A DNA stretch of 64,000 bases from Candidatus Omnitrophota bacterium (GTDB taxonomy: Bacteria; Omnitrophota; Gorgyraeia; Duberdicusellales; 4484-171), in assembly GCA_003154195.1 (NCBI GenBank), contig PMCS01000008.1, forward strand, positions 15,366 through 79,365, given 5' to 3'. Position numbers and translations under genes: made by a program. Under the pieces are notes generated by a model that made no database searches, had not been told where the DNA came from, and saw only the letters and a list, made by a program, of their open reading frames with translations. This document shows, one piece after another, positions 21,613-38,120 of the stretch. Position 1 is the first letter of the stretch. Every line of letters begins with the position of its first letter.

Positions 21613-22968
21613 TTATGTCAAATGTAGATATGGTTTCCCCTCCGTCAACGGATTAAGGAAACGAGAAATCTCTAACGCGCCCTTACGTTCTTTTAAATTA
21701 ATTATTTCTTTTTTATCCGCAAGCACAATTGTTTCAACTATCGGCGAAAATATATCGTCGCCGTTTTCGTCCCTCACCACGGCAACCCTTCCATCGCTTA
21801 AAGCGACAAGCGCGCCTATCGGCCAGACGCCCATTACTTTAAAAAACTCATCAAAAAGCTTCGGCTCGAACAAACCCCCTTGTTCCTTAAGCATCGTTTC
21901 ATAGATAAGCTTCGGCGCGTAATCGCGCTTATAGCTGCGCCGCTGGCCCAACGCGTCGTAAACATCACAAAGGGTGACTAAAGAAGAAACCAAATGCGGT
22001 TTGTAAGAAAAGAATAACTTCGGGTAACCGGTTGAATCGTACCGGGCGTGATGCTCAAACGCGACAACCACCGGTAAAAAACCTAAACTGTCGGTATATC
22101 TTAAAAGAATCTCCGCACCAAGGTAGCTGTGGCTCTTCATCAAAGCAAATTCTTCATCGCTTAAGCGCGATTCCTTGCCGATAATTTTTCGGGAAATATC
22201 AACCTTGCCGATATCATGGAAAAGAGCGGCAATACCGATATCCACGACATCATCTTTGGAAAAACCGAGACGGGAAGAAAAATACATCGCTAAAACGCAA
22301 ACATTCAATAAATGCATAAAAGTAGAAACATCGTATTTTTTTATCGCGGTTAATTTAAGAAAATCACTGTACCGGGTCATGAGATTTTCCATAACATTCA
22401 CGATATTAAACCGTAGCTGGAGGTAATCAACGTCTTCCTGCCCCAAGATAAAATCCACGGAATCGGTAATACGGTCCAAAGAATCTTCGTATTTTTTGAA
22501 AGGGCCGGCCGCCTCCTTAGGCTCTTGCCCGGCTCCCTGGCGCGGCACGCCGCCTGACGGCGACGCCGTAATTTTTCCCACGCTGATGTTTTTGATGCCC
22601 AAAAGGCTCAAGTTTTGCGGATTCTTTTCAAAATTTACCGATTGCTCCGAAAGAAGGGAAAGAAATTTAATAAATTCCTGTTTATCTAATCCGCGGCAAA
22701 AGCTTATCCTCTCAATACCCCTGGCCTTTAAATAAAGAATCATACTGCGAAGTTTCTTGCTCAATTCAAAAAATATTTCCGTCTCATACGCCAGCTCTTC
22801 CCCCACAATCCCGAGGATCAGCTCATCCTTTTTCCGAAGAATATCGTCTAAATCGCCGAACGCTGTATCGGCAGATTCACTGAATTTAGGATGAGTGGTC
22901 GTATATATTTTAGCGATCTGAAATGCCGAGATGAAATTTTTTAAAAAAGTTTCAATCTTTTCCAGCAT
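21613..22968 (-). CDS. HD-GYP domain phosphodiesterase with an N-terminal domain shared with the upstream gene
   Basis: HD-GYP motifs LFHDIGK and EHHARYDSTGYP. Start taken at MLEKIETF (22968); the longer ORF to 23085 overlaps the upstream gene. Confidence 0.8.
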   Translation of the reverse strand: MLEKIETFLKNFISAFQIAKIYTTTHPKFSESADTAFGDLDDILRKKDELILGIVGEELAYETEIFFELSKKLRSMILYLKARGIERISFCRGLDKQEFIKFLSLLSEQSVNFEKNPQNLSLLGIKNISVGKITASPSGGVPRQGAGQEPKEAAGPFKKYEDSLDRITDSVDFILGQEDVDYLQLRFNIVNVMENLMTRYSDFLKLTAIKKYDVSTFMHLLNVCVLAMYFSSRLGFSKDDVVDIGIAALFHDIGKVDISRKIIGKESRLSDEEFALMKSHSYLGAEILLRYTDSLGFLPVVVAFEHHARYDSTGYPKLFFSYKPHLVSSLVTLCDVYDALGQRRSYKRDYAPKLIYETMLKEQGGLFEPKLFDEFFKVMGVWPIGALVALSDGRVAVVRDENGDDIFSPIVETIVLADKKEIINLKERKGALEISRFLNPLTEGKPYLHLT

Positions 22969-24886
22969 TCCACCTCTCCAGAAGTTTACGGGATTTGCGC
23001 CGCAGTCTCCATTTAAACAAAGATTTTGTTTTGCTGAAATCGTTGAGGTATCTTTCCGCCTCTCTGACGCCAAGCGCGGCGACAATATCGATATTCTCTT
23101 CTAAAATCCTATTTTTCAGCCCGAATTTATTGGGGTAGCAAAACATAAACCGCATTGCTTCCTCTATAAGTTTTGAATCTTTAGCTATAGCCGAAAGCGC
23201 CGCTTTCTTTAAAAGAAAACTCTCTTTTTTCAGAACCGAAAATAAAAAATCTGCGTCGCGAGCTTCGCTCTCCCCCATAATCCCCAATATCTCTATCTTG
23301 GCTAAATCATTCGTTAAATTAAAAATATTTTTGAAAAACTCCCGCGCCGAAGATGCGTTGACATCTTTTGCCGCACCGATAAGTTTTCTGATAAAAGCTG
23401 TATCGGAAATTTTCTCTCTTATTTTCTTTAAAAATAAGTCGCCATCGCTGCCGAAAAACTTAAAGAATAACCGCAGAATACGGGAATCAACCCTATTTTG
23501 TTTAAAAATCTTATCCAGATAGAATTCAACCCCCAAAGAGCTGACTGCCAGATGTTCACTTAAAAGTCCGGCTTGCCGGGTATCGCTGTTTTCCAGAACA
23601 TAATTTTCCAGAAAACAAGATAGTTTATTATAGAGAACGAAAAAAATATCCCCCGGTTGGCTGATTCCTTTATTTTTCTCGTTAAAAACAATCAGGCTTT
23701 GCGTTAGATAATCAATATTCCCGGTATTTATTATATTATCCCACTCATCGGAAATCTTTTTTAAGATAATATCGAGTTTAACGCGTTTATTTTCCTGAGC
23801 GAGAAGATTCAACAAAATACAACGGTAGTTGTCATAAAGGGTGGAACGTTCAAAAACAAAATCGTTGCGGGATTCCGGCTCTTCATAAAGCGAAGCAACA
23901 ACCTTGCGATAGATTCCGGAAATTACCGGCGAAAATTCGACGGATAGTAATTCTTTCATTTTTTTCCGCGCCGCCGTTTTATTTTTTATCGCGGGATGGC
24001 CGGCGGACTTAGCGGAAAAGGAAGCGGCTACGGTCTCCTGTTTCGTTTTATCCATAAGCTGGGCGAACAAGCCAAACGCCGTGGAATCAAAATTATCATC
24101 GCCGGTCAGCCCATCCCAAAGAGTATCCGCAAAATCATCCGCTTCAAAAGTATCTAAGATTTCTTTTATTTTGTTTACATTAGTTTCTCCCAGATTATTT
24201 TTATTTTTTATAATTAATTTAATAAAATCTTTCGAGCATTGGCTGAATTTATCCTTATGCTTGTCTTTTAGAAATAGGAAGAATTTCTTTAAAACATCTT
24301 TGAGCGCTTCCTTTTCTGTAAAATCTTTCAGCTTAAACTTTTCGATGATTGTGCCGAACTTATCGGCTAATTCGCCAATTTCTCCGGCGTTCTGGTTCTC
24401 CACCGCCTTATTGAGTAAATATCCCCAGATATCCTTATACTCCTCCCCCTCGCCTTTTAAAAACTGTGAATAATCCAATTCCTCCACGGTAATATTGTTA
24501 ATTTTATTTTTTCCAAGGATAAAAGCCATGCCTCCTTCCTTGAATGTATTCTTAGCGGACAAACCGACCGCGGATAAAAATAAATCCCACTCTTGCGCGG
24601 TTACGCCCTTTTTTATTTCCAGGCTTTTTATTTTCCGGGAATGAAAAAGTTGAGCCAGTTCTTCATATAGTTTTACCTTCTCCCAATACTGGCCATCAAT
24701 CATCAGAGAAGACGAAGTAAAACCTATTCTGATGGGGCAGGCAAATTCAAAAAGCGAATCGGTCTTTTTTCTTAGATCATCCACGGATTTGCGAAAAAGC
24801 GGATGCTCCGTGGAATAGACCGAAACATTATTGAGCGCCACCCGAAAACTTTTAAAAAATTCTTCGTAAGCGGTAGTTTTATCCAT
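22952..24886 (-). CDS. Large all-helical hypothetical protein; its N-terminal ~110 aa are paralogous to the HD-GYP protein N-terminus
   Basis: EEFFKSFRVALNNVSVYSTEHPLFRKSVDD... aligns with FLKNFISAFQIAKIYTTTHPKFSESADT... of the downstream gene (shared F.K.F, Y.T.HP.F, S.D, FLS positions). HEAT-like C-terminus. No tubulin/FtsZ GGGTGTG motif. Confidence 0.45.
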   Translation of the reverse strand: MDKTTAYEEFFKSFRVALNNVSVYSTEHPLFRKSVDDLRKKTDSLFEFACPIRIGFTSSSLMIDGQYWEKVKLYEELAQLFHSRKIKSLEIKKGVTAQEWDLFLSAVGLSAKNTFKEGGMAFILGKNKINNITVEELDYSQFLKGEGEEYKDIWGYLLNKAVENQNAGEIGELADKFGTIIEKFKLKDFTEKEALKDVLKKFFLFLKDKHKDKFSQCSKDFIKLIIKNKNNLGETNVNKIKEILDTFEADDFADTLWDGLTGDDNFDSTAFGLFAQLMDKTKQETVAASFSAKSAGHPAIKNKTAARKKMKELLSVEFSPVISGIYRKVVASLYEEPESRNDFVFERSTLYDNYRCILLNLLAQENKRVKLDIILKKISDEWDNIINTGNIDYLTQSLIVFNEKNKGISQPGDIFFVLYNKLSCFLENYVLENSDTRQAGLLSEHLAVSSLGVEFYLDKIFKQNRVDSRILRLFFKFFGSDGDLFLKKIREKISDTAFIRKLIGAAKDVNASSAREFFKNIFNLTNDLAKIEILGIMGESEARDADFLFSVLKKESFLLKKAALSAIAKDSKLIEEAMRFMFCYPNKFGLKNRILEENIDIVAALGVREAERYLNDFSKTKSLFKWRLRRKSRKLLERWNAGKD

Positions 24887-24907
24887 GTTCAAACCTTGAA
24901 ACCCCAC

Positions 24908-25000
24908 TAGAGTGTCATAGTGTCAAAGTATACCCCTTGTAGCGCTCCGACACTCCATCTGGCTCTCTGACACTTTGACGCTCTGACGCTTTCGCGCTCA
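24908..25000. repeat. Intergenic word-palindrome (catagtgtc / gacgctttg family)
   Basis: agagtgtcatagtgtcaaag ... ctctgacactttgacgctctgacgcttt. Paralogs at 47800-47878 and 32540-32605. Confidence 0.7.
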
Positions 25001-26143
25001 AAAGTATTCTCTATAAATCTGCGCAATCTTCTCCCGGATTGTTTGGCTTTTCCCCCGCTCTAAAAACCGGGTTAGCCCATAGCGTATACACCCATAAGAA
25101 GAAGACAAGAGACCCTGCGGCAAAGAAGAAACGGCAAGTTGAGAAGGCAGTAATTCTTTTACGAAAGAAAAAAAACCCTCTTTACCGTTCAGCCTTCCTA
25201 AAAAATAGAGCGAAAAAGGCGCGCTGACTTTGCCGCCGATGCTTGAAACCATCGCTTCAATCTGGCCCTTGATATAAATCTTCAAAAAACTGTTGATCGC
25301 GTTTGTACTCAAATTCATATACGTGCTGCCGTCTCTAATACTTATCTCTTTGGCAGGTGGCACCTCGGTAAACGACGCATAATTGTCGAAAATATTCTGC
25401 GCCAGGTTAAATGACAACAGGAAATTCTTTTCCAGCGCTTCGATAATTTTTTTAATTCCAAAATCAAACTCGCCGACGCAATCCACCGAGCCTTGTGAAC
25501 ATGCTACGACACGACTGTGGTCATAGCCGATGCTTAAAGCCGCTTCTACGCCTTCGGTTTTGCAATCGCATAGAAACATCGCAACAATACCAAAATCGTG
25601 CGCCGTAAAATTAACCAAGCGCCGGTCGAAATTGGCAAAAAGTTCTCCCACTTCGCGGCGTACGCTATCCTTAATCCAGAAAATATGGGAATTAAGTTTG
25701 ATTTTTCTTGCCCATACGCCCAGGGGAGGCATCCGGTGGACAACCCCATCGATCTCATAATTATTCACAAAATGGTGAAGACAGTAATCATCCCAATCCA
25801 GAAAAACGTCTTCCACATACTTTTTAGACCGAACAATATCCCTGGCGCTTATTTTTTTTACTCGCTTCAAAGGAACAACTTCTTCTACGATGCTGTGGTT
25901 TTCGCAAGCCGGCGGCAAATTAATATAAATATCGCAAAACCGGTGTGATAATTCTTTTTCCTGACTTTTTATTTGCGCGTTAAACGTGTCGCAATTTTTC
26001 CTAAAAAAATCGGCGATGTCGGTTTCCCATGGCACACACAACGATATTTCTTTAATAAAATTTAGCTTCCCCTTCTCGAGAGAAGCTAAAGAAATAAAAG
26101 TTTTATCGCGATCGATATCAAAACCGCAAATACCTTTCATCAT
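24998..26143 (-). CDS. Divergent FtsA-like (actin/ASKHA-fold) protein at the ftsA position of the dcw cluster
   Basis: Directly follows ftsQ, as ftsA does in canonical dcw order. Weak phosphate-1-like GFDIDRDKTFISLA and adenosine-like LSIGYDHSRVVACSQG motifs. Otherwise highly diverged. Confidence 0.4.
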   Translation of the reverse strand: MMKGICGFDIDRDKTFISLASLEKGKLNFIKEISLCVPWETDIADFFRKNCDTFNAQIKSQEKELSHRFCDIYINLPPACENHSIVEEVVPLKRVKKISARDIVRSKKYVEDVFLDWDDYCLHHFVNNYEIDGVVHRMPPLGVWARKIKLNSHIFWIKDSVRREVGELFANFDRRLVNFTAHDFGIVAMFLCDCKTEGVEAALSIGYDHSRVVACSQGSVDCVGEFDFGIKKIIEALEKNFLLSFNLAQNIFDNYASFTEVPPAKEISIRDGSTYMNLSTNAINSFLKIYIKGQIEAMVSSIGGKVSAPFSLYFLGRLNGKEGFFSFVKELLPSQLAVSSLPQGLLSSSYGCIRYGLTRFLERGKSQTIREKIAQIYREYF

Positions 26144-26329: not shown

Positions 26330-27121
26330 CTATTTCACTCCGATGTATCCTTCTTTGAACCGCAAATCAATGTATTTTACGCCCGCCAGATTTCCTTTTA
26401 ATTTTTCGTTCACTAAATTATCGAAAATAAAAAGTTTATGTTCGACGTCATCGATGCCGATAATAACCTTTACCGCGTTTGTTTCTTCCGGACGGTCTTT
26501 GCTGCCGATCATAAAGCTTAAAGCGGGCAGAGATGTCGCGTTAATCGAAGTTATGACAAACCTCTTAACCACATCCTTACCTTGAAACGCCTCCCATAAA
26601 ATAAATGCGTATTCCAGCCGTTTGTCTCTGATCAAATCGCCCGGATCAAGTTTCCGCGCCCGGTCATACAGGTCTATGGCAACAAAATTATCAAACGGCT
26701 CGGCGCTGCCGCCGCTTAAAATAACGCCTTCCCGGTCAATAAGATAAAATAAGCTATTTTTAATTTGCGCTAAAGGCCGGCGCTTCTTGATCAGTATCTT
26801 AACTGTCGCGGGAAATTCTTTTAAAACGCACACTTCCTGGTATAGAGGATTGCCTTCCAGCAGCATCCGGCGGATTTTTCCCGCGTCTAAAGAAAAAAGA
26901 GATTTTCCGGAAATCTCCCTTTTTGTGTTTTTGTCTAAAACAACATTCGACTTGACACAGTTTTCATTAACCAAAAAAGTATTGGATTGCGACAAAAACG
27001 TTTCCGCTGTTTTATACAAATAGCTAAGCAAAAACAAAGAAAAAATAAAAACGAGCGCGGTTTTGATCAACCGAGAATCTAATTTGAAATTTGCCCTGTT
27101 AGCTTTTTTTCCTTTTCTCAT
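26330..27121 (-). CDS. ftsQ: Cell division protein FtsQ/DivIB (POTRA)
   Basis: N-terminal transmembrane helix plus a periplasmic POTRA-like domain, in the dcw position between ddl and ftsA. Confidence 0.6.
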   Translation of the reverse strand: MRKGKKANRANFKLDSRLIKTALVFIFSLFLLSYLYKTAETFLSQSNTFLVNENCVKSNVVLDKNTKREISGKSLFSLDAGKIRRMLLEGNPLYQEVCVLKEFPATVKILIKKRRPLAQIKNSLFYLIDREGVILSGGSAEPFDNFVAIDLYDRARKLDPGDLIRDKRLEYAFILWEAFQGKDVVKRFVITSINATSLPALSFMIGSKDRPEETNAVKVIIGIDDVEHKLFIFDNLVNEKLKGNLAGVKYIDLRFKEGYIGVK

Positions 27122-28040
27122 TTAGCCCCATTAAGGTCATCTTTAAAATCAACTCATCGAAACTTATACCGCAATGTTTTGCCGCCAGAGGCAGAAGACT
27201 ATGCGTAGTCAAACCCGGTATAGAATTCACCTCAAGCACGTACGGACAATTATTTTTATCTAAAATTATATCAACCCGGGAAAAATGACGGCACCCTAAA
27301 GCCCTATGCGCTTTCAAGGCAACCGCCTGAACTATTTTACGGATATCATCCGCAAGCTTAGCCGGAACTATAAATTCCGCCAAGCCATCGCTATACTTTG
27401 CGGTAAAATCAAAATACCCTGTCTTAGGCGCTATCTCAATCACGCTAAGAGGATTTTCTTCTAAAATACCTACGGTTAATTCCCTTCCCGGTATGAATTC
27501 TTCCAGAACCGCCTTATTATTTAACGCTGAAACTTTGTCTAAAGCCGGATTTAAATCCTGCGCGTTCCGAACAATGGATAATCCTATGCTTGAACCGCCG
27601 AGGTGCGGTTTAACTACTACGGGATATCCCATCGATGGAGAAACCGGCGATCCTTCCTGCCAAACCGTAAAATGCGCGGTAGGAATTTTTTCCTTAAAAA
27701 ATATTTCTTTAGATTTTATCTTATTCATTGCCGTAGAGCTCGCCAGCGGCGATGAACCCGTATAGGCGATATTCATTTCTTCCAGGATCTGTTGTATCCT
27801 GCCGTCTTCACCAAACTCGCCGTGCAAAGCAATAAAAACCACATCCATACCGCAAGAAAGAAGATTTTTTACTTTTTCTTTATCACAAGTATTTATATCG
27901 ATAAAAATAGCGTCAACGGCCTGCCTCCTTAATGCCTTCAACGCCTCATTGGCGGAGATAAGAGAAATTTCCCTCTCACTGGAAACCCCGCCGCCCAAGA
28001 CGCCTACTTTAATATTTTTCAAATCACCGATACCGGTCAT
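27099..28040 (-). CDS. ddl: D-alanine--D-alanine ligase
   Basis: Ddl motifs LHGEFGEDGRIQ and ATP-grasp. The true start is likely MTGIGDLK at 28040. The ORF extension to 28067 (MPDPYEILS) is encoded by the intergenic palindrome. Confidence 0.88.
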   Translation of the reverse strand: MTGIGDLKNIKVGVLGGGVSSEREISLISANEALKALRRQAVDAIFIDINTCDKEKVKNLLSCGMDVVFIALHGEFGEDGRIQQILEEMNIAYTGSSPLASSTAMNKIKSKEIFFKEKIPTAHFTVWQEGSPVSPSMGYPVVVKPHLGGSSIGLSIVRNAQDLNPALDKVSALNNKAVLEEFIPGRELTVGILEENPLSVIEIAPKTGYFDFTAKYSDGLAEFIVPAKLADDIRKIVQAVALKAHRALGCRHFSRVDIILDKNNCPYVLEVNSIPGLTTHSLLPLAAKHCGISFDELILKMTLMGLNEKRKKS

Positions 28041-28051
28041 ACTTAATATCT

Positions 28052-28183
28052 CGTAGGGGTCAGGCATGCCTGACCCGTTGATTTATATTTCAAAAATGTC
28101 AGATTTGAACAATCTGACGACAATCGATAAATTATTATTTTCCCGTATTTTATTAACGGGGCGGGCATGCCCGCCCCCTACAG
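28052..28183. repeat. Intergenic palindromic element (gtagggg...cccctac family)
   Basis: Arms gtagggg[tcaggcatgcctga]cccgtt and aacgggg[cgggcatgcccg]cccctac. The caggcATGcctg palindrome creates an ATG on both strands. Confidence 0.75.
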
Positions 28184-28184
28184 G

Positions 28185-29039
28185 TTACACCCACCTCTGG
28201 ATCTCTTCTTCCAATAATACGCTGTGTTTTTGGAAAACTTTATCTTTTATTGTACGGATCAAATAATCTACATCATCATAAACGGCGCCGCCGACGTTAA
28301 TTATGAAATTAGCATGCTTATCCGAAACTTGAGCGCCGCCTTTACGCGAACCCTTAAGGGCGCATGAATCAATTAAAAACCCTGCCGCCAATCCGACGGG
28401 GTTTTTAAAAACGCATCCGCAACTGGGATAACCAAAATCCTGCTTCTGCAGCCTCTGCGCCAGGAAATCTTTTATGCGTAAACGCACCCCCTGCCCGTTT
28501 CTCAATTCGAACCAGGCGCGTAAAATAATCTTATCCTTCAAAGAAGAATGCCGGTAGCCAAATTCGATATTGGTTCTATCCAAAATTTTCACGGTTCCCC
28601 GGCCGGCCAGAATTTGGGCTTTTTTTAAAAAAGATGACACCTCCCTGCCGAAAGCCGAAGCGTTCATCGCCAACATCCCGCCCAGAGTTGCCGGTATTCC
28701 TGCCAGATTTTCCCATCCCTCAAGGTTATGCTCAATGCAATAACGCAGAATACTTCTCAAAGAAGCCGCCGCGCCGATTTCTATCAGACCGCCGTCATCT
28801 TTTATATAATCAAATTCCTTTCCCAGTTTTATCACCGGTTTCTCTATCAAAGAATCTTTGATCAACAGGTTGGAACCGCCGCCCAAAAGATAGAATCGCT
28901 CTTCATTCTGCCTTGAGAAAGCAGCTAAATCATCCGTAGACTCGACGATACAAAAATACCTGGCCTTGCCGCCTATTTTTATGGATGAATATTGTTTTAA
29001 ATCAACGTTATTCCGTATCTGAAGATCTTTGATAACCAA
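28185..29039 (-). CDS. murB: UDP-N-acetylenolpyruvoylglucosamine reductase
   Basis: FAD-binding domain with GGGSNLL and the MurB C-terminal domain. Confidence 0.88.
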   Translation of the reverse strand: MVIKDLQIRNNVDLKQYSSIKIGGKARYFCIVESTDDLAAFSRQNEERFYLLGGGSNLLIKDSLIEKPVIKLGKEFDYIKDDGGLIEIGAAASLRSILRYCIEHNLEGWENLAGIPATLGGMLAMNASAFGREVSSFLKKAQILAGRGTVKILDRTNIEFGYRHSSLKDKIILRAWFELRNGQGVRLRIKDFLAQRLQKQDFGYPSCGCVFKNPVGLAAGFLIDSCALKGSRKGGAQVSDKHANFIINVGGAVYDDVDYLIRTIKDKVFQKHSVLLEEEIQRWV

Positions 29040-29054
29040 TCTCCTCGCAACTTT

Positions 29055-30458
29055 TCAAATTTCTTTCATATTATTTTTGATGGAGTTATTACTAATTCTC
29101 TTAAATTCCTCCAAAATACCATCCATCAAGATATTAATATCTCCCGCCCCCAGGCCAATCACGATATCCCCTTCCTCCAGATAAAGCGGGACTGTCTTTA
29201 TCAACTTATCTTTCGGAACATACTTTACTGATTTACATGATTTTTTCTTTATTTCCCCGGCTAGAATATGACCGCTTAGCCCTTCGATCTCTTTTTCGCA
29301 CGCCGAATATATATCCGTAACAATAACTTCGTCGGCGCAGGAAAAACAGGAACCGAATTCGCCGCACAATGCTTTCGCCCGGGAAAAACGGTGGGGCTGG
29401 AAAATAGCCACCAGACGACGCGGATTAAGCAAGCGGGCTGCCTTTAAAACCGCTTGAATCTCCGAGGGGTGATGCGCATAATCATCTACAAAAGTAACCT
29501 GCTGAACAACTTCTTTTATTTGAAACCGCCTCTTAGTCCCTTTAAAATCGGCCATAAAATCTATGACCCGGGCAAGGTCTTCGCCCAGATAATGGAAAAA
29601 ACCCAAAACCGCTAAAGAATTAAGCGCGTTATGTTCGCCCAGCAGAGGTATTTTTACCCGGGAAACCGGCTTGTTATCGATAAAAAAAGAAAAGTTGCTG
29701 AACCGGCCGTCAAAAGAAAAATCATCGGCCCTGAATTTATTACTGTCGCTAAAACCGTAAGTCCAGCCGTCAGCCTTGACGATAATATCGCGTAAATAAG
29801 GGTCCTCGCCCCAGCCGATAACTTTGCCTTTAGTCTGATAGGCAAATTTCTGGAAGCCCGCTCTCAGGTTTTCAATATTTTTATAGTAGTCAAGATGTTC
29901 CGCGTCAATATTGGTAATCAGAGAAACCAGGGGGTTATAGTACAGAAAACTTGCGTCGCTCTCATCGGTCTCAATCACAAAATATTCATCGCCCCACCAG
30001 GCACTACGAGAATAGTTCAGGGGCACCCCCCCCACAAATACCGTCGGTTTATAACCCAAGGCGGTCAAAAGATAGCCCGTAAAAGCCGTGGTCGTGGTTT
30101 TACCATGGCTGCCGGCAACAGCAATAGTTTTTTTATCCCAGGTAAGCAATCCTAAAAGTTCGCCCCGTTTCAGGATCGTCAAGCCGCGGCAGCCAGCCTC
30201 GATAAGTTCGGAATTATCATCTTTGATTGCCGAAGAATATGTGACTAAATTGGTATCCGGCGCGATGTTTTCTTTTCGATGGCCGATAAAAATATCGATA
30301 CCTTCCCGGCGAAGCATCGCGACCGTAGGACTATCCTGTATATCCGAACCGCAAACCCGAAAACCCTTATCTTTTAAAAGTAAAGCCAAACCGCTCATGC
30401 CGATGCCGCCGATACCGATAAAATGAATATTTTTTACTCCTGATAGAATTTTTTCCAT
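29055..30458 (-). CDS. murC: UDP-N-acetylmuramate--L-alanine ligase
   Basis: HFIGIGGIGMSGLA and the Mur ligase GSHGKTTTT. Confidence 0.9.
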   Translation of the reverse strand: MEKILSGVKNIHFIGIGGIGMSGLALLLKDKGFRVCGSDIQDSPTVAMLRREGIDIFIGHRKENIAPDTNLVTYSSAIKDDNSELIEAGCRGLTILKRGELLGLLTWDKKTIAVAGSHGKTTTTAFTGYLLTALGYKPTVFVGGVPLNYSRSAWWGDEYFVIETDESDASFLYYNPLVSLITNIDAEHLDYYKNIENLRAGFQKFAYQTKGKVIGWGEDPYLRDIIVKADGWTYGFSDSNKFRADDFSFDGRFSNFSFFIDNKPVSRVKIPLLGEHNALNSLAVLGFFHYLGEDLARVIDFMADFKGTKRRFQIKEVVQQVTFVDDYAHHPSEIQAVLKAARLLNPRRLVAIFQPHRFSRAKALCGEFGSCFSCADEVIVTDIYSACEKEIEGLSGHILAGEIKKKSCKSVKYVPKDKLIKTVPLYLEEGDIVIGLGAGDINILMDGILEEFKRISNNSIKNNMKEI

Positions 30459-31339
30459 CCGTCCTCCAGATTTTTCATAGTGGTGAATACTCCGAATGAC
30501 TTGATCAGGGCTTCCTCCAGGGTTGCGTCATTGCGCAAACAAAACAAAAAATAGTTAAAAGTATCCCGGCCGCGGTCTTTGATCATAAAATTAATCAGCG
30601 AGAAAGATTCAATATAAAAAATATCGGCATATTCTTGAGGCTGACTATTTAAAAATAAACCGTCGATTTTATTCAATTTTTCAAAAGGTATATAGTTATT
30701 ATCTCTAATCATAACTTTCGCGGCCGGTAGATATCCCTGATGGGCTCCGTTATTATATTTATCTTCAATATACATCGCGACAGCTTCATCAAGCCATAAA
30801 GGAAAATTCTTTTCGCCGACGTACTCCCGGAAAATTATATGCGTCAGCTCATGCGCCAATATCGCAGAAAATCGATTCTGATTCGGGTAGGTATAAATCA
30901 GGCGTTCCCGGTAATCGACGCACGCCCCGGACCATTGGGGGCAATTAAAACGCCGGGAATAATCATCGCGGTCCCTGGCGACATAAATTTTTGCCCTGTT
31001 TTCCCAAAGCCAAAGCTTACCCCTGATGAGGTTGAATTCCTCCGTAATCCGGGAGAAAAACTGTTCCGCGATATCCCTTATGCCATAGGCATAGTTATCG
31101 CCCACCGCCGGAGAATAATAAATAATGAAATGATCACACTTTAATTCCTTAAAATCAGATTCCTGCGCGAAACAAATAATGGAACAAAAAATACAAAATA
31201 AAAAAAATTGACAAAATACCTTAGTCCACAGGTTAATCAGATTATTCAGATTAATTTTTACAGATTTTTTATGATTTTTTTCTGTATAATCCGCAAAACC
31301 AGTCAATAACGTTTTTATCTTTAAAATATTTTTAACCAT
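30434..31339 (-). CDS. Membrane-anchored putative zinc metallopeptidase (HExxH...E) embedded in the dcw cluster
   Basis: Transmembrane helix FCQFFLFCIFCSIICFA, then AILAHELTHIIF with WLDEAVAMYIE about 20 residues later (gluzincin-like). Overlaps the murC start by 25 bp. Confidence 0.4.
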   Translation of the reverse strand: MVKNILKIKTLLTGFADYTEKNHKKSVKINLNNLINLWTKVFCQFFLFCIFCSIICFAQESDFKELKCDHFIIYYSPAVGDNYAYGIRDIAEQFFSRITEEFNLIRGKLWLWENRAKIYVARDRDDYSRRFNCPQWSGACVDYRERLIYTYPNQNRFSAILAHELTHIIFREYVGEKNFPLWLDEAVAMYIEDKYNNGAHQGYLPAAKVMIRDNNYIPFEKLNKIDGLFLNSQPQEYADIFYIESFSLINFMIKDRGRDTFNYFLFCLRNDATLEEALIKSFGVFTTMKNLEDGWKKFYQE

Positions 31340-31359
31340 TGATTTTTCCGATAAATCTG

Positions 31360-31432
31360 TCCCGTTACCCTGAATGAAATATTTAGGTGCGGGACGCCCC
31401 GAACCTAAATAGATTATCTATGGTAACGGGGC
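31360..31432. repeat. Intergenic palindrome with cccgtta/taacggg termini
   Basis: gccccgttaccctgaatgaaatatttaggt ... acctaaatagattatctatggtaacggggc. Confidence 0.7.
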
Positions 31433-31484
31433 TGCGAAATATGTGGACTAGAATCTTTTATTGTTTTTGCCTTTTATCTATTAT

Positions 31485-32513
31485 TTATTTCAGCATCCGC
31501 CCAATGTTCTCGCCGAATTCATCGCAAGCTACCGCTAATTTTATTTTTGCCAAATTGGCAATCATGCCATTTCTTACCGCGTCATCGAAAAGCAATTCTC
31601 CCGCGCGAAGTTTAAAATCGGCAAAATTAAAATCGTCCTGCGTAAAGACACGGGCGGCGCCGCGTTCTTCAAAATACAAAGCATTGGCTTTTTGATGCCC
31701 GCCGGCCGCGGGATAGGGAATCAATATTGGCGGTATTCCGTAATAGGAAATTTCCGCCAGGGTCGAAGCCCCCGCGCGCGAAATAATCAGATCAGCCGCG
31801 CTGTAAAGATATTGCATATCGTAATAAAAATCTTTTATAAATTTTGCTTTTTCTATTTTTTCATACATCGCCAAACATTCGCGATAATTATTCTTGCCGG
31901 TAAGATGAATGATCAAAAATTCCTCATCCAGCTCTGCGACGAGTTTTATAAAATTTTTATTCAGGAATTCTGAGCCCTGGCTTCCGCCAAAACATAAAAT
32001 CCCGGGTTTACCGTTTAAACCCAAATGCTTTCTCGCTTCATCCCTGTTTATCTTTCTTATATTTTCCCTTAAAGGAACGCCGACGACACAAGCTTTATCG
32101 CGGTTATCGCCGGCATCAAAACCGTATATCACCTTGCGGCTGAAAAAAGAAAGCGCCTTGTTTGCCGCGCCCATAACGGCGTTAGGTTCATAAACCGCCG
32201 TCGGGATAAAAATACAAGAGCTGAAAAAAAGTAAAAAAAAACTATCCCTTCCTCCGAAACCGATAACCCGCTCTGGCCTGACCAACAACAAAATATAAAC
32301 CGCTTCGCTAAACCGCCATAATGCTTCACAAAAAATATTTCTCTTTTTAAAAACTTTTCCCCATACCTTATATCCCCTGTCCCTGATATAACCTTTCAAC
32401 GACTCGGCGGTGGCAAAAAAACAAACCTCTCCTTCTTTCTCAAAAGCCTTCGCAAAAACAAGAGCAGGGAAAATATGTCCTCCGCTCCTATCGCAAACCA
32501 ATAATGTTTTCAT
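31485..32513 (-). CDS. murG: UDP-GlcNAc:lipid I GlcNAc transferase
   Basis: GGHIFPALV at the N-terminus and the GT28 C-terminal domain. Confidence 0.85.
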   Translation of the reverse strand: MKTLLVCDRSGGHIFPALVFAKAFEKEGEVCFFATAESLKGYIRDRGYKVWGKVFKKRNIFCEALWRFSEAVYILLLVRPERVIGFGGRDSFFLLFFSSCIFIPTAVYEPNAVMGAANKALSFFSRKVIYGFDAGDNRDKACVVGVPLRENIRKINRDEARKHLGLNGKPGILCFGGSQGSEFLNKNFIKLVAELDEEFLIIHLTGKNNYRECLAMYEKIEKAKFIKDFYYDMQYLYSAADLIISRAGASTLAEISYYGIPPILIPYPAAGGHQKANALYFEERGAARVFTQDDFNFADFKLRAGELLFDDAVRNGMIANLAKIKLAVACDEFGENIGRMLK

Positions 32514-32610
32514 GTATTAACCTAAATAATCTCTAAGCGCCAAAGTATCAGAGTGCCAGGGCGGTTCTTTAACTTTGACGCTTTGCCCTTTTGACGCTAT
32601 GATCCTTCCG

Positions 32611-33921
32611 TCAATCTGCCAGCATTGGCTCCATCTTCCCGGCAACTTCGCGTATCTTCTCTTCATAAGGACGCGACGCGTTAAAAAATAACCCCAGAAG
32701 TATATAATGGGCGATCAAATTACTGCCGCCGTAACTCAAAAAAGGAAACGACAAGCCTTTGGTAGGAAAAAGGCCGCAGGCCACGCCGATATTCCCCAGT
32801 ATTTCTAAAAAAAATATAAAAGTTATCCCTAATAGAATCGCGCGACGCGATTCGCTGACGGCGAATCTGGCGATATTGAACATTTTATAAAAAATTGTAA
32901 AACACAAGGCCAATACCGCAAAAGAACCGAAAAACCCAAATTCTTCGGCAATAATAGAAAAAATAAAATCAGTGTGCGCCGCCGGTAAAAAAAATAATTT
33001 TTGCATTCCCTCTCCCAACCCTACGCCCGTAAGACCGCCATTACCGAAAGCAATCTGAGATTGAACAAGCTGGAACCCTGTTCCTTGCGGATCGGCAAAA
33101 GGATTAAGGTAGGCGGTTATCCGCCTAAAACGATAAGGATGAAGTTTAATCAGAAAAAATAACGCGATTAGCGCCAAAACAACGAGCGGCACGATATGCT
33201 TTGCCCTGGCGCGATATAAAACCAGAAAAAGCATCGTCCAAACAATCCAGAATACCGCTGTTCCTAAGTCCGGCTGCAAAAGGAGCAGGCCGCAGATAAC
33301 CACCATCACCAACCCTAAGGGGAGAAGCCCTCCGTAAAAACTTCTGAGCAAAACCCCTTTTCTCCTGAAATACTCTACGGCGTAAAATAAAAAAGTTATT
33401 TTCAATATTTCCGACGGCTGTAAATTAAAACCCGGGAGTTTAAACCAGCGGGTAGCACCGCCGGCGGTCCTGCCGATAACCGGCACTAAAGCCAGAAGCA
33501 CCAGCGTTAAAACCAAAAACAACTTATTATGACGGCGCAAAAAATCCAAATCGACAAGCAAGGCCAGGAGAAACAAAACAAGGCTTACGGCAAAATAAAC
33601 AACCTGGCGTATTAAAAAATACTGGGAATCTGAAGTTATTTTATAAGCATACATGCTTGAAGATTCATAAACCATAAGGATACCGAAAAGAGTAAGCAAA
33701 AAAACTGCGCCAAAAATAAACCGACGCTCCTTGCTTAATGGCTTTCGCGGCGGCGCTTCATTATCGGCGCCGTCTTCCTGACAAAAATAATCGGGTTGAG
33801 GACAAGCCTCCAGCGTTTTTCTGGGATGGGCAATAAAAATGCGAAGATTAGCAAACAATTTTTTAATATTTTGCAATTTACCTTCCAATGATTTTTTTAA
33901 TTTTAAGAGGTATTCTGTCAT
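32611..33921 (-). CDS. ftsW: SEDS-family lipid II flippase/polymerase FtsW
   Basis: Ten transmembrane helices and a SEDS core, with an N-terminal cytoplasmic extension of about 75 aa. Confidence 0.85.
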   Translation of the reverse strand: MTEYLLKLKKSLEGKLQNIKKLFANLRIFIAHPRKTLEACPQPDYFCQEDGADNEAPPRKPLSKERRFIFGAVFLLTLFGILMVYESSSMYAYKITSDSQYFLIRQVVYFAVSLVLFLLALLVDLDFLRRHNKLFLVLTLVLLALVPVIGRTAGGATRWFKLPGFNLQPSEILKITFLFYAVEYFRRKGVLLRSFYGGLLPLGLVMVVICGLLLLQPDLGTAVFWIVWTMLFLVLYRARAKHIVPLVVLALIALFFLIKLHPYRFRRITAYLNPFADPQGTGFQLVQSQIAFGNGGLTGVGLGEGMQKLFFLPAAHTDFIFSIIAEEFGFFGSFAVLALCFTIFYKMFNIARFAVSESRRAILLGITFIFFLEILGNIGVACGLFPTKGLSFPFLSYGGSNLIAHYILLGLFFNASRPYEEKIREVAGKMEPMLAD

Positions 33922-33960
33922 TTTAAAATGAATTGGCCATCGGTCTTTGGTCTTTAATTA

Positions 33961-35211
33961 TTATTCACCTAAACTATTGACTATCTGGACAAACTTCCTC
34001 CCCCTATCCATGTAATTCATAAACATATCGAAGCTGGCGCACATCGGCGAAAGAATGACCGTATCACCCCGGGACGCTTCCGCAAAAGAAGCGGCAACGG
34101 CATCCTCCAGCGACGGGAAAATTTCCACAGCGGCGAGTAAACCCAATTCATTTTTTATTTTCGGCGCGGCCTGGCCGATTAAATTAAGCTTTTTGACTTT
34201 TTCCAGATAAGGGTTGATTAAATCGTAATCTACGCCTTTATCTTTTCCGCCGGCGATCAGGATAATTTTCCCCCTGGTGTTCTTAAGCGCCCATATAGTA
34301 GAAGATGGGTTCGTAGATTTAGAATCATTCACAAAAGTAACGCCGTTGATTCTTTTCACGAATTGCATCCGGTGCGGCAATCCCTTAAATTCCGAAAATG
34401 CCTTTACGCAATCGGCCTTAGCCACATCAAAAATGCTTGCTATCCGGCAAGCGCACGAATAATTCGCGTTATCAAACTCATCGGAAAAATACAAAACTTT
34501 TGCTTTTATATTTTTTTCCACATCGGAACGCAAACGCATATCTTTATTGATAATTGCCCAATCATCTTTTTTTTGATTCTTGAAAATATTCATTTTGGCG
34601 TTAAGGTAATCCTTGAAGGTCGGATGCCGGTCTAAGTGGTTAGGGCCGACGTTGAGAAGCACGGCAACATGCGGCCGGAATTCTAAAATTGTTTCCAATT
34701 GAAAAGAGCTTATCTCTAAAACAATTAAATCGCCTTTTTTAGTATTTAAAACAAAGGAAGAAACGGGAATGCCGATATTTCCGCCCAAGAAAACTCTTTT
34801 GCGTTTTTCTTTTAATGCCCGGTAGGTGAGAAAAGTCGTAGTAGATTTTCCGTTGGTCCCAGTAATCGCGATAAATTTTGCCTTGGTCAGCCAAAAAGCA
34901 AACTCGACTTCCCCCACACAAAGAATACCGAGCTCCTTAGAGATTCTGGCAACGTCCGATGTCAAAGGATCTACGCCCGGACTTAAAACAACAAGTTGAC
35001 AATCTTTGATAAATTTTTCGCTATTGGCGCCGAATTCGAATTGGACGCCTCTCTCTCCATACCGAGTGATGGGCAACGGATGGAATGAATCCTTCTCTTT
35101 AATCTCGGTCAGTTTAACCTCTTTTTTCAGCGCAAGCAAAGCATCGCAAAGAGCGATACCACTCCGGCCCCATCCCACCACACCTACTTTTTTGATGCTA
35201 TCGATGTCCAT
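33961..35211 (-). CDS. murD: UDP-N-acetylmuramoylalanine--D-glutamate ligase
   Basis: Mur ligase GTNGKSTTT, in the dcw position. Confidence 0.88.
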   Translation of the reverse strand: MDIDSIKKVGVVGWGRSGIALCDALLALKKEVKLTEIKEKDSFHPLPITRYGERGVQFEFGANSEKFIKDCQLVVLSPGVDPLTSDVARISKELGILCVGEVEFAFWLTKAKFIAITGTNGKSTTTFLTYRALKEKRKRVFLGGNIGIPVSSFVLNTKKGDLIVLEISSFQLETILEFRPHVAVLLNVGPNHLDRHPTFKDYLNAKMNIFKNQKKDDWAIINKDMRLRSDVEKNIKAKVLYFSDEFDNANYSCACRIASIFDVAKADCVKAFSEFKGLPHRMQFVKRINGVTFVNDSKSTNPSSTIWALKNTRGKIILIAGGKDKGVDYDLINPYLEKVKKLNLIGQAAPKIKNELGLLAAVEIFPSLEDAVAASFAEASRGDTVILSPMCASFDMFMNYMDRGRKFVQIVNSLGE

Positions 35212-35219
35212 TTTATTAT

Positions 35220-36511: not shown

Positions 36512-36540
36512 AAATTTATTATATTTGAATGATTGCTATC

Positions 36541-37991: not shown

Positions 37992-38039
37992 AATTTTTAT
38001 TTCTTACTGCGTAAAAAATAAATAACGATAATTGCGTAG

Positions 38040-38112: not shown

Positions 38113-38120
38113 ATATTTGA

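What the first reader, a model, noticed from the sequence alone, without database searches (positions are those of the whole stretch)
21613..26143. dcw cluster ends in a divergent FtsA-like gene and is followed not by ftsZ but by a c-di-GMP signalling pair with a shared N-terminal domain
The gene order mraZ through ftsQ is canonical, and the 381-aa protein at 24998-26143 occupies the ftsA slot with only vestigial actin-fold motifs. The next two genes overlap each other by 17 bp: a 651-aa helical protein and an HD-GYP phosphodiesterase. Their first roughly 110 residues are clearly paralogous, with shared F.K.F, Y.T.HP.F, S.D and FLS positions. No tubulin signature GGGTG[ST]G is present in the window. 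This is either an FtsZ-independent division arrangement, or ftsZ lies elsewhere, with a second-messenger module coupled to the division operon.
Basis: partly seen in the sequence, partly recalled or inferred. Interest (0 to 1): 0.6.

Follow-up and report, generated by a model that had tools for sequence, protein, structure and literature searches.

The report
Omnitrophota division cluster without ftsZ
This is the cell-wall/division gene cluster of an uncultivated Omnitrophota bacterium, a phylum already reported to lack FtsZ; it ends in a real but ATP-site-less FtsA and is followed by a phylum-wide, undescribed two-gene module (a helical-repeat protein plus an HD-GYP phosphodiesterase that share a start domain) whose link to division is only positional.

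Summary
On the minus strand the order is mraZ, rsmH, a 122-aa FtsL-slot gene, ftsI, murE, murF, mraY, murD, ftsW, murG, a metallopeptidase gene, murC, murB, ddl, ftsQ. A 381-aa protein follows, then a 644-aa protein and a 451-aa HD-GYP protein that overlap by 17 nt. No FtsZ is encoded in the window.

The organism is Candidatus Omnitrophota, and lineage-wide absence of ftsZ is already published.

The 381-aa protein is a true FtsA homologue. It has the FtsA fold with the 1C domain and a conserved C-terminal amphipathic helix. All three nucleotide-binding loops are replaced by other conserved residues in 32 sequences.

The 644-aa protein is an N-terminal alpha/beta domain plus a HEAT-like solenoid, and it has no c-di-GMP domain. 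The HD-GYP protein keeps its catalytic residues.

Their shared ~145-aa N-domain matches nothing in Pfam, NCBIfam or PDB sequences. The two genes are adjacent in 96 of 96 loci, so they form an obligate pair.

The pair follows ftsA in 23 of 30 genomes retrieved through FtsA. It follows ftsA in none of about 47 informative loci retrieved through the HD-GYP protein. Coupling to division is therefore lineage-specific and unproven.

The parts
26330..43269 (-). dcw cluster in the order mraZ, rsmH, 122-aa FtsL-slot gene, ftsI, murE, murF, mraY, murD, ftsW, murG, Peptidase_MA_2 gene, murC, murB, ddl, ftsQ
   Evidence: Pfam hits; precomputed Pfam on the identical contig; the same order in relatives
30434..31339 (-). 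301-aa Peptidase_MA_2 (HExxH) gene inserted between murG and murC; conserved at this position in relatives
   Evidence: Pfam PF13485 E=1.3e-11; present between murG and murC in L007-L009 and in most GTDB loci
26330..27121 (-). ftsQ (263 aa), divergent
   Evidence: POTRA_1 23.3 bits, FtsQ_DivIB_C E=0.004; NF004039 FtsQ E=3e-4
24998..26143 (-). Divergent FtsA orthologue (381 aa). It has the FtsA fold with the 1C domain and a C-terminal amphipathic helix (...IAQIYREYF). The phosphate-1, phosphate-2 and adenosine loops are replaced.
   Evidence: Family profile vs PDB FtsA E=2e-12, PilM 0.017. AF2 pLDDT 85, pTM 0.83. Foldseek top 19 hits are all FtsA at TM 0.61-0.68, PilM about 0.53, MreB about 0.45. 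Motif alignment and statistics.
22952..24886 (-). 644-aa protein: N-terminal alpha/beta domain followed by an alpha-solenoid (HEAT/ARM-like). The family is about 640 aa and carries no annotation.
   Evidence: 63 homologues of 614-682 aa, all 'hypothetical', named ones mostly Omnitrophota. AF2 pLDDT 85. Foldseek PDB returns only generic solenoids with TM of 0.25 or less. No Pfam, NCBIfam or PDB sequence hit.
24437..24886 (-). Copy 1 of the shared N-domain (about aa 1-150 of the 644-aa protein)
   Evidence: BLASTP vs the HD-GYP protein E=2e-7; alignments; local profile hit E=3.5e-58
21613..22968 (-). 451-aa HD-GYP phosphodiesterase: shared N-domain, linker, HD-GYP domain and a C-terminal extension
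   Evidence: Pfam HD 45.9 bits and HD_5 36.4 bits, both above cut-off. PmGH 4MCW E=3e-23, also V-cGAP3 and PA4781. More than 120 full-length clusters at 51-56% identity.
22534..22968 (-). Copy 2 of the shared N-domain (about aa 1-145 of the HD-GYP protein)
   Evidence: local profile hit E=2.7e-46
21835..22392 (-). HD-GYP catalytic domain (aa 193-378). The H, HD(IGK), H, HH...D..GYP and D residues are conserved. The extra Glu of the tri-metal PmGH is Ser here.
   Evidence: Residue-by-residue alignment to 4MCW; motif EHHARYDSTGYP
22952..22968 (-). 17-nt overlap between the stop of the 644-aa gene and the start of the HD-GYP gene, with a GGAGAGG ribosome-binding site upstream (translational coupling)
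   Evidence: Sequence read. An overlap or a gap of at most a few nt occurs in 21 of 22 non-redundant relatives.

Best explanation
Shown:
- The window is chromosomal DNA of an uncultivated Candidatus Omnitrophota bacterium (PVC superphylum).
- Its dcw cluster ends in a vertically inherited FtsA that keeps the FtsA-specific 1C domain and the C-terminal membrane-targeting helix.
- The glycine-rich phosphate-1, phosphate-2 and adenosine loops of that FtsA have been replaced by other conserved residues.
- The absence of ftsZ after ftsA is a property of the lineage (published), not a local rearrangement.
- The next two genes are an obligate, translationally coupled pair. One is a ~640-aa protein made of a ~145-aa alpha/beta domain plus a HEAT-like solenoid. 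The other is an HD-GYP phosphodiesterase with a complete di-metal catalytic set that begins with a paralogous copy of the same domain.

Inferred:
- The FtsA-like protein no longer binds or hydrolyses ATP. It acts as a passive membrane tether or scaffold for the FtsQ/FtsW/FtsI septal peptidoglycan machinery through its 1C domain.
- The two N-domains heterodimerise or bind the same partner or ligand. The solenoid would then be the scaffold or regulatory subunit of an HD-GYP enzyme that degrades c-di-GMP, or a related cyclic dinucleotide.
- In this lineage the pair is probably co-transcribed with ftsA, so second-messenger turnover is coordinated with envelope growth and division. That coordination is lineage-specific and is not required for the pair to function.
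For: Taxon:
- Homologues that carry names are Candidatus Omnitrophota or Omnitrophica MAGs.

FtsA identity:
- The family profile hits PDB FtsA at E=2e-12, against 0.017 for PilM.
- The AF2 model has pLDDT 85 and pTM 0.83.
- The top 19 Foldseek hits are all FtsA at TM 0.61-0.68, against about 0.53 for PilM and about 0.45 for MreB.
- The gene sits directly after ftsQ, with a 4-nt overlap in relatives.
- The C-terminus RILxIY[RK]EYF is conserved and is predicted to be a helix at residues 369-380.

Lost nucleotide loops, counted in 32 distinct sequences:
- Phosphate-1: IGT becomes x-D(26/32)-x.
- Phosphate-2: DIGGGT becomes [SD]I[DG]Y(28/32)xx.
- Adenosine: GGA becomes G-R(29/32)-L(31/32).

The protein is still under selection: all ORFs are intact and 28 alignment columns are invariant.

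FtsZ:
- None in the window or in 41 related loci.
- Seymour 2023 supplement: 'Except for one occurrence [archaeal-like], Omnitrophota lack a homolog for ... ftsZ'.
- Pende 2021 Supplementary Data: FtsZ absent but FtsA present in 3 of 5 'Omnitrophica' genomes.

The pair:
- The solenoid gene lies directly upstream of the N-domain HD-GYP gene in 20/20 GTDB loci and 76/76 metagenome loci. The junction overlaps in most.
- The N-domains are homologous.
- The HD-GYP metal ligands and the GYP motif are conserved against PmGH.

Link to ftsA:
- The pair follows ftsA in 23/30 informative species genomes at only 33-47% FtsA identity.
- In the window the pair stays with ftsA although the downstream context differs (metF instead of the glycosyltransferase genes).
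- In relatives a second HD-GYP module (REC plus a 385-aa HD-GYP with a weak GAF match) occupies the same spot.
Against: - Loss of ATP binding is inferred from motifs only.
- Adjacency to ftsA is not universal. Five species genomes have ftsA followed directly by the glycosyltransferase gene, and two have only the REC plus HD-GYP module.
- In 0 of about 47 informative metagenome loci is an FtsA-like gene upstream of the pair.
- A crude NJ tree needs only one relocation, so there is no sign of repeated recruitment of the pair to dcw.
- The whole 20-kb neighbourhood is syntenic in the dcw-adjacent clade, so conserved adjacency is weak evidence of shared function.
- No GGDEF cyclase was seen in the window.
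- The HD-GYP domain also matches a cGAMP-specific enzyme, so the substrate is open.
- ftsZ absence was not verified in this genome itself.
Confidence: 0.5

Rival explanations
1. The solenoid/HD-GYP pair is a general housekeeping signalling module of Omnitrophota. Its position after ftsA in this lineage is a historical accident of gene order, and it has no role in division or wall synthesis.
For: - In 0 of about 47 informative loci retrieved through the HD-GYP protein is an FtsA-like gene upstream. There the pair sits before DUF1846, a beta-CASP RNase and an M48 peptidase, and after variable genes such as glnA and GAF-ANTAR.
- Five FtsA-retrieved genomes lack the pair at the dcw end.
- The HD-GYP protein is more conserved (51-56% identity) than FtsA-like (33-47%) or FtsQ (27-41%), as expected for an independent core function.
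- One relocation explains the distribution.
Against: - Adjacency is retained across deep divergence: 23/30 species, with FtsA-like identity down to 33%.
- Adjacency survives a change of downstream context in the window.
- A second, unrelated HD-GYP module (REC plus a 385-aa HD-GYP with a weak GAF match) is inserted at the same site in 9 relatives.
- No terminator-like site lies between ftsA-like and the pair.
Confidence: 0.35
2. The solenoid protein, together with the ATP-independent FtsA and tuned by the HD-GYP enzyme, is the functional replacement of FtsZ. It would be a new scaffold that organises septal wall synthesis in a phylum without a tubulin ring.
For: - The solenoid gene occupies exactly the ftsZ slot in 23/30 species genomes.
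- The phylum lacks ftsZ yet keeps ftsA, ftsQ, ftsW and ftsI.
- The solenoid family appears restricted to this phylum and has a constant length.
Against: - There is no polymer-forming or nucleotide-binding feature in the model. Its structural matches are generic HEAT/ARM adaptors.
- In a large clade the gene is not near dcw.
- Genomes including the closed chromosome CP070684.1 have nothing between ftsA and the next conserved gene.
- MreB and FtsK KOs are listed for Omnitrophota entries in Seymour's table, so a Chlamydia-like MreB/FtsK route is an available alternative.
Confidence: 0.08
3. A canonical ftsZ lies elsewhere in this genome. Division is ordinary Z-ring division and only the gene order is unusual.
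For: - Only 64 kb of the genome was examined, corresponding to positions 15516-79515 of a 280-kb contig.
- One 2025 survey states in general terms that dcw genes are highly conserved in Omnitrophota.
- One genome labelled Omnitrophica (OLB16) has FtsZ.
Against: - Seymour 2023, covering 421 genomes and 276 species, reports no ftsZ homologue except one archaeal-like contaminant.
- Pende 2021 found none in 4 of 5 genomes.
- There is none in the window or in 121 related loci.
- The nucleotide loops of FtsA are degenerate, which would be odd for a working FtsZ-FtsA pair.
Confidence: 0.04
4. The FtsA-like gene is a decaying relic left behind after the loss of ftsZ and has no function.
For: - All three nucleotide-binding motifs are lost.
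- The protein fails the TIGR01174 and Pfam cut-offs.
Against: - The ORFs are intact at 381-392 aa in 32 species.
- 28 alignment columns are invariant, and the replaced motif positions are themselves conserved (D, Y, R-L-N).
- The C-terminal helix is conserved.
- The AF2 model is confident.
Confidence: 0.03

Closest known systems
FtsA (bacterial actin-like divisome protein; PDB 4A2A T. maritima, 3WQU S. aureus, 7Q6D/7Q6F E. coli/Vibrio)
   Same: - The same fold, including the FtsA-specific 1C (SHS2) subdomain.
- The same gene position after ftsQ.
- A C-terminal amphipathic helix ending in ...EYF, compared with ...KEF in E. coli.
   Different: - 9-14% identity to solved FtsAs.
- The phosphate-1, phosphate-2 and adenosine loops are replaced by conserved non-glycine residues.
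- The 2B region is shorter.
- No FtsZ partner exists in the lineage.
- The protein scores far below the TIGR01174 cut-off.
HD-GYP c-di-GMP phosphodiesterases (PmGH 4MCW, PA4781 4R8Z, RpfG type; also the cGAMP-specific V-cGAP3 5Z7C)
   Same: - The HD-GYP domain has all di-metal ligands, the HDIGK lysine and the GYP motif.
- Pfam HD and HD_5 score above their cut-offs.
   Different: - The N-terminal partner domain is not REC, GAF or any annotated domain. It is a ~145-aa alpha/beta domain shared with the neighbouring solenoid protein.
- The Glu that ligates the third metal in PmGH is Ser here.
- The substrate is untested.
FtsZ-less division in Chlamydiota and Planctomycetota (PVC)
   Same: The same superphylum, no ftsZ, and retention of the peptidoglycan synthesis genes and of ftsQ, ftsW and ftsI.
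   Different: Those phyla also lack ftsA (Pende 2021; iScience 2025). Omnitrophota keep a remodelled FtsA inside an intact, unfragmented dcw cluster.
HEAT/ARM alpha-solenoid scaffolds (PP2A A subunit, importin-beta, AP2 trunk)
   Same: The same fold class for residues ~150-644 of the 644-aa protein: stacked helical hairpins.
   Different: The similarity is generic only (TM of 0.25 or less, about 10% identity). The bacterial protein also carries a unique N-terminal alpha/beta domain. No homology is implied.
Cyclic-di-GMP control of division or the cell cycle, such as E. coli DgcN/YfiN acting on the Z-ring and Caulobacter PleD/PopA (recalled from knowledge, not tested here)
   Same: The idea that a c-di-GMP enzyme is functionally tied to the division apparatus.
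   Different: Those are cyclases or effectors acting on FtsZ-based division and are not encoded in the dcw cluster. Here the enzyme is a phosphodiesterase next to ftsA in an FtsZ-less organism, and the tie is positional only.

Membership tests
FtsA | Actin/HSP70-type fold with the 1C (SHS2) subdomain in place of 1B | tested here: met
   Foldseek top 19 hits are all FtsA (TM 0.61-0.68, E as low as 3e-22), against about 0.53 for PilM and about 0.45 for MreB. Pfam SHS2_FTSA matches residues 88-154 weakly. The profile hit to PDB FtsA spans residues 47-255.
FtsA | Gene located in the dcw cluster immediately after ftsQ | tested here: met
   Window coordinates; the same in 32 GTDB species loci
FtsA | C-terminal amphipathic membrane-targeting helix | tested here: met
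   Conserved ...R-I-L-x-I-Y-[RK]-E-Y-F terminus with Y and F invariant. Predicted as a detached helix at 369-380 with low pLDDT. Membrane binding itself was not tested.
FtsA | ATP-binding phosphate-1 (DxGT), phosphate-2 (DxGGGT) and adenosine (GGxA) motifs | tested here: not met
   In the window these read GFDIDRDK, LSIGYDHS and FLGRLNGKEGF. In 32 sequences: G to D in 26/32, GG to xY in 28/32, and GG to GR in 29/32.
FtsA | Score above the curated equivalog threshold (TIGR01174) | tested here: not met
   21.4 bits against a cut-off of 175.85
FtsA | Binds the C-terminal peptide of FtsZ through subdomain 2B | not testable with these tools
   No FtsZ is known in the lineage. The 2B region is shorter than in E. 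coli FtsA.
HD-GYP phosphodiesterase | HD superfamily domain with H...HD...H...HH...D metal ligands and the GYP motif | tested here: met
   The alignment to PmGH 4MCW conserves all of these...MH..., FHDIGK, KSH, EHHARYDSTGYP, CDVYDAL. Pfam HD 45.9 bits and HD_5 36.4 bits are above their cut-offs.
HD-GYP phosphodiesterase | Third-metal glutamate of the tri-nuclear subclass (PmGH type) | tested here: not met
   PmGH PETQNH aligns with VSTFMH, so Glu becomes Ser. This suggests a di-metal site. Naming this Glu as the third-metal ligand rests on my recollection of the PmGH structure paper.
HD-GYP phosphodiesterase | Hydrolyses c-di-GMP | not testable with these tools
   There is sequence similarity to the cGAMP-specific V-cGAP3 as well. 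No GGDEF gene lies in the window.
FtsZ/tubulin | GGGTG[ST]G signature or tubulin GTPase domain encoded in the window | tested here: not met
   A six-frame motif scan finds nothing. tblastn with two FtsZ queries finds nothing in the window or in 121 related loci.
c-di-GMP signalling protein (for the 644-aa protein) | GGDEF, EAL, HD-GYP, PilZ or another known c-di-GMP domain | tested here: not met
   No Pfam or NCBIfam family and no PDB sequence hit with the family profile. The model is an N-domain plus a solenoid.
Annotated sensory/input domains (for the shared N-domain) | Match to a curated domain model or to a solved structure | tested here: not met
   No Pfam or NCBIfam hit at E of 0.1 or 1. 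The profile against PDB sequences gives nothing better than E=0.05. A fold-level test was not possible.

The most novel reading that the evidence does not exclude
In FtsZ-less Omnitrophota, three proteins form a new kind of division-site organiser: an FtsA that has lost nucleotide binding, a phylum-specific HEAT-like solenoid protein, and an HD-GYP phosphodiesterase joined to the solenoid through a shared N-domain. Scaffold assembly and local cyclic-dinucleotide turnover would take over the organising and timing role of the FtsZ GTPase ring. The gene order ftsQ, ftsA, solenoid, HD-GYP would be the ancestral trace of that replacement.
Probability: 0.08. Interest if true: 0.85.

Novelty: new variant of a known kind. 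Interest (0 to 1): 0.5.

Why it matters
How bacteria divide without FtsZ is a long-standing open question for the PVC superphylum. Chlamydiae and Planctomycetes lost both FtsZ and FtsA. Omnitrophota lost FtsZ but keep an intact dcw cluster with an FtsA whose ATP site has been rewritten while its 1C domain and membrane helix are kept. That makes this FtsA a natural experiment on what FtsA does without FtsZ and without nucleotide, and it can be tested on recombinant protein.

Separately, the solenoid/HD-GYP pair and its shared N-domain are two large, conserved, unannotated protein families. The N-domain profile has thousands of representative matches, and the pair appears to be a core module of a widespread uncultivated phylum.

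The FtsZ absence itself is not new, and the division link of the pair is only positional.

Tried and rejected
- Sequence searches with no result. The solenoid-family and N-domain profiles gave nothing usable against PDB sequences. Pfam and NCBIfam gave nothing for either.
- N-domain profile against 1.84 billion representatives. It gave 5408 matches at E of 1e-3 or better, 1505 at 1e-10 and 198 at 1e-30. Only the best 150 are listed, and they are nearly all the ~640-aa family. I therefore could not tell whether the domain occurs outside Omnitrophota or with other output domains.
- Shorter hits from that list were checked in Pfam. They look like gene fragments.
- Promoter and terminator scan of 19800-27200. 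Counts were near the shuffled expectation and were not informative.
- Possibility of an internal second copy of the N-domain in the solenoid. Rejected, because the secondary HMM stretches have E above 30.
- Possibility that the pair was recruited to dcw more than once. Not supported by a crude NJ tree of the HD-GYP proteins (no support values, midpoint root).
- Locating ftsZ elsewhere in the genome.


Full report
**What is in the sequence**

Nearly all genes of the window lie on the minus strand. From 43269 down to 26330 the order is:
- mraZ, rsmH
- a 122-aa membrane protein in the FtsL slot
- ftsI, murE, murF, mraY, murD, ftsW, murG
- a 301-aa Peptidase_MA_2 gene
- murC, murB, ddl, ftsQ

These identities rest on the ORF list, Pfam and precomputed Pfam hits on the identical public contig.

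Three genes follow ftsQ:
- a 381-aa ORF at 24998-26143
- a 644-aa protein at 22952-24886; the ATG at 24886 is the start supported by gene calls and homologues, not the GTG at 24907
- a 451-aa HD-GYP protein at 21613-22968

The last two genes overlap by exactly 17 nt. The TGA is at 22954-22952 and the ATG at 22968, preceded by GGAGAGG. Next come a 47-aa ORF, metF and a coiled-coil membrane protein.

No tubulin signature occurs in any frame. Two small corrections apply: the extra peptidase gene inside the 'canonical' order, and the true start codons.

**Which organism**

The same sequence lies on ENA and JGI metagenome contigs, the longest 280,125 bp. The window corresponds to positions 15516-79515 of that contig. 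Homologues of all three proteins that carry a name are Candidatus Omnitrophota or Omnitrophica MAGs. The rest of the window is ordinary housekeeping DNA.

**FtsZ**

Absence of ftsZ from Omnitrophota is already in the literature.
- The Supplementary Information of Seymour et al. [quoted passage not shown] The one exception is 89% identical to an archaeal protein.
- Pende et al. 2021 list FtsZ as absent in four of five 'Omnitrophica' genomes, while FtsA is present in three of those four. Their figure legend groups Omnitrophica with the FtsZ-less PVC phyla.
- Rivas-Marin et al. 2016 found FtsZ only in bacterium OLB16.
- A 2025 survey says only in general terms that dcw genes are conserved in Omnitrophota.
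- KO lists for two entries in Seymour's table contain ftsK, mreB, mreC, ftsI and ftsQ (ftsW and ftsA in only one of the two) and skip K03531. I do not know what those entries denote.

In my own data none of 121 related loci, about 1.3 Mb in total, encodes FtsZ. I could not scan the rest of this genome, so absence in this organism rests on the lineage-wide reports.

**The 381-aa protein is FtsA, remodelled**

As a single sequence it barely touches FtsA models: SHS2_FTSA E=0.0025, and TIGR01174 at 21 bits against a cut-off of 176. Stronger evidence comes from three sources.
- A profile of 18 family members hits solved FtsA structures at E=2e-12 over residues 47-255. PilM scores only 0.017.
- An AlphaFold2 model is confident, with pLDDT 85 and pTM 0.83.
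- Its 19 best PDB matches are all FtsA at TM 0.61-0.68. PilM follows at about 0.53 and MreB at about 0.45.

The protein therefore has the FtsA-specific architecture with the 1C domain.

I aligned the family with E. coli FtsA. The three nucleotide-binding loops of the actin/HSP70 superfamily are replaced:

| Loop | E. coli FtsA | Window protein |
|---|---|---|
| Phosphate-1 | GLEIGTAKV | GFDIDRDKT |
| Phosphate-2 | VDIGGGTMD | LSIGYDHSR |
| Adenosine | LTGGAAQIEGL | FLGRLNGKEGF |

In 32 distinct sequences the replacements are themselves conserved: Gly to Asp in 26, Gly-Gly to x-Tyr in 28, and Gly-Gly-Ala to Gly-Arg-Leu in 29-31.

The C-terminus, ...R-I-L-x-I-Y-R/K-E-Y-F, is nearly invariant. 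It aligns with the E. coli membrane-targeting helix ...WIKRLNSWLRKEF.

All ORFs are intact at 381-392 aa, and 28 alignment columns are invariant. This is a protein under selection that has most likely given up ATP binding, not a decaying gene. Loss of ATP binding is an inference from motifs.

**The two genes after ftsA**

The 644-aa protein has no Pfam, NCBIfam or PDB sequence match. Its 63 listed homologues are 614-682 aa (apart from two truncated entries), all 'hypothetical', and where named mostly Omnitrophota. The AlphaFold2 model (pLDDT 85) shows an alpha/beta domain at residues 1-~145, followed by about 25 helices forming a solenoid. PDB fold matches are generic HEAT/ARM proteins with TM of 0.25 or less. 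It is not a c-di-GMP protein by any test.

The 451-aa protein has an HD-GYP domain at residues 193-378.
- Pfam HD and HD_5 score above their cut-offs.
- The best solved relative is PmGH (4MCW, E=3e-23), followed by the cGAMP-specific V-cGAP3 and PA4781.
- The His, His-Asp, Lys, His, His-His, Asp and GYP positions are all conserved. The Glu that lies four residues before the first His in PmGH is Ser here. From what I recall of the PmGH structure, that Glu ligates the third metal, so a di-metal site is likely.
- The family is strongly conserved: more than 120 clusters at 51-56% identity over the full length.

**The shared N-domain**

BLASTP between the two window proteins gives 26% identity over 160 residues, E=2e-7.

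A profile of the domain finds exactly two copies in the window and in each related locus. Against 1.84 billion representative proteins it finds 5408 matches at E of 1e-3 or better. The listed top 150 are almost all the ~640-aa family, so I cannot say whether the domain exists outside these two families. It has no curated model and no solved relative by sequence.

**Gene-order evidence**

Thirty are informative downstream of ftsA.

| Arrangement after ftsA | Number of loci | Which loci |
|---|---|---|
| Solenoid gene first (HD-GYP follows in all 20 whose contig continues) | 23 | includes 7 with an extra module, below |
| ...of which also carry a receiver-domain gene plus a 385-aa HD-GYP gene with a weak GAF match | 7 | L014, L021, L025, L026, L029, L034, L039 |
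| Only the receiver plus 385-aa HD-GYP module | 2 | L011, L012 |
| Nothing between ftsA and a conserved MGDG-synthase-like glycosyltransferase gene | 5 | L023, L027, L030, L031, L033 |

The junction between the solenoid and HD-GYP genes overlaps or is within a few nucleotides in 21 of 22 non-redundant loci.

I then retrieved loci from the other side, using the N-domain of the HD-GYP protein against metagenome contigs.
- In 76 of 76 loci with upstream sequence, a solenoid gene ends right before the HD-GYP gene.
- The FtsA-like profile finds nothing in any of the 80 loci, even at E=10, although about 47 have room for it. No ftsQ or ddl is present either.
- There the pair typically precedes DUF1846, a beta-CASP RNase and an M48 peptidase. 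In L050 and L055 it follows glnA and a GAF-ANTAR gene.

The search patterns bias this set towards one clade. In a crude neighbour-joining tree of the HD-GYP proteins, the non-dcw loci form one clade and the dcw-adjacent ones form a paraphyletic grade. The window groups with L025, L026 and L034 (no support values, midpoint root). One relocation is enough to explain the distribution.

**Interpretation**

Two things are solid.
- This phylum keeps an intact dcw cluster with a rewritten FtsA and no FtsZ.
- The solenoid and HD-GYP genes are an obligate, translationally coupled pair (96 of 96 loci) sharing a start domain. This is the pattern expected of two subunits of one complex, or of two proteins that answer to the same partner or ligand.

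My best explanation is as follows. The solenoid is the scaffold or regulatory subunit of a di-metal HD-GYP phosphodiesterase, joined through or regulated by the paired N-domains. The FtsA-like protein is a nucleotide-independent membrane tether for the FtsQ/FtsW/FtsI machinery.

The position of the pair after ftsA is conserved across deep divergence in part of the phylum. It persists in the window despite a different downstream context, and a second HD-GYP module inserts at the same place in relatives. These facts hint at coordination with envelope growth. Against this, the pair is absent from the dcw end in a large clade and in five FtsA-retrieved genomes. Adjacency is therefore not required, and a direct division role is unproven.

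The reading that the solenoid replaces FtsZ is not excluded, but nothing supports it beyond position.

**Novelty**

The FtsZ absence and the presence of an FtsA homologue in Omnitrophota are published. I found no paper describing three things (within the held library only):
- the loss of the nucleotide loops in this FtsA
- the solenoid/HD-GYP pair or its shared domain
- HD-GYP genes at the end of a dcw cluster

I rate the finding a new variant of known kinds (FtsA; HD-GYP architecture) in a known FtsZ-less lineage.

Noticed in passing
window 30434-31339 (-); also L007-L009 and most of L010-L041: A ~270-300-aa Peptidase_MA_2 (HExxH) gene with an N-terminal hydrophobic segment sits inside the dcw cluster between murG and murC. 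It is conserved there in nearly all relatives. This is an unusual, clade-wide insertion that might act on peptidoglycan peptides.
   Followed up: partly
window 26166-26185, 26242-26261 and 28158-28177: Three perfect GC-rich hairpins (9-bp stem, 2-nt loop, such as GGGCCGGGC-AG-GCCCGGCCC) lie in intergenic gaps inside the dcw cluster of a 42% GC genome. Two are in the 186-nt ftsQ/ftsA gap, which does not exist in relatives, where these genes overlap by 4 nt. They may be REP-like elements or RNA-stability or processing sites.
   Followed up: partly
window about 24945-24990 (- strand), between ftsA-like and the 644-aa gene: The 111-nt gap contains direct repeats GCGTCAGA, GCGTCAAA, GTGTCAGA and, further on, GTGTCGGA, followed by a TTGACA-like hexamer. 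It could be an operator or promoter for the pair. This was not tested.
   Followed up: no
L014, L021, L025, L026, L029, L034, L039 (about 14600-16200); L011 and L012 (11334-12989): Relatives carry a second module between ftsA (or the pair) and the glycosyltransferase gene: a stand-alone receiver domain (119 aa) plus a 385-aa HD-GYP protein with a weak GAF match. The window lacks it. The dcw end is thus a variable HD-GYP 'slot' with all four combinations of the two modules.
   Followed up: partly
L015 (JAIWAR010000001.1); L016-L019, L028, L031, L036, L038, L041: Contigs carrying this Omnitrophota-type bacterial dcw cluster are deposited as 'Methanosarcinales archaeon' (L015) or 'uncultured Planctomycetia' MAGs. 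The archaeal label looks like mis-binning. It could reflect physical association, because some Omnitrophota are reported epibionts or predators of methanogens.
   Followed up: no
window 19924-20466 (-): A 180-aa protein with an N-terminal transmembrane segment and a long coiled coil overlaps the metF stop by 4 nt. It gives only sub-threshold coiled-coil matches (EzrA, crescentin rod and others). Its function is unknown.
   Followed up: no
window 10949-12843 (-): Glutamate racemase (murI-like, Asp_Glu_race) and an Amidase_3 (AmiC-type N-acetylmuramoyl-L-alanine amidase) lie next to each other about 9 kb downstream of the HD-GYP gene. More wall genes are therefore nearby.
   Followed up: no
window 16305-19692 (-): An Rrf2-family regulator, a 4Fe-4S ferredoxin-domain protein and a hybrid-cluster (prismane) protein form a small cluster downstream. 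The same set follows metF on all contigs of this organism.
   Followed up: no
L050 4315-8362 and L055: In another Omnitrophota clade the solenoid/HD-GYP pair sits directly after glnA and a GAF-ANTAR antiterminator gene, and before DUF1846, a beta-CASP RNase and an M48 peptidase. This is a quite different neighbourhood and might hint at a nitrogen-related input.
   Followed up: partly
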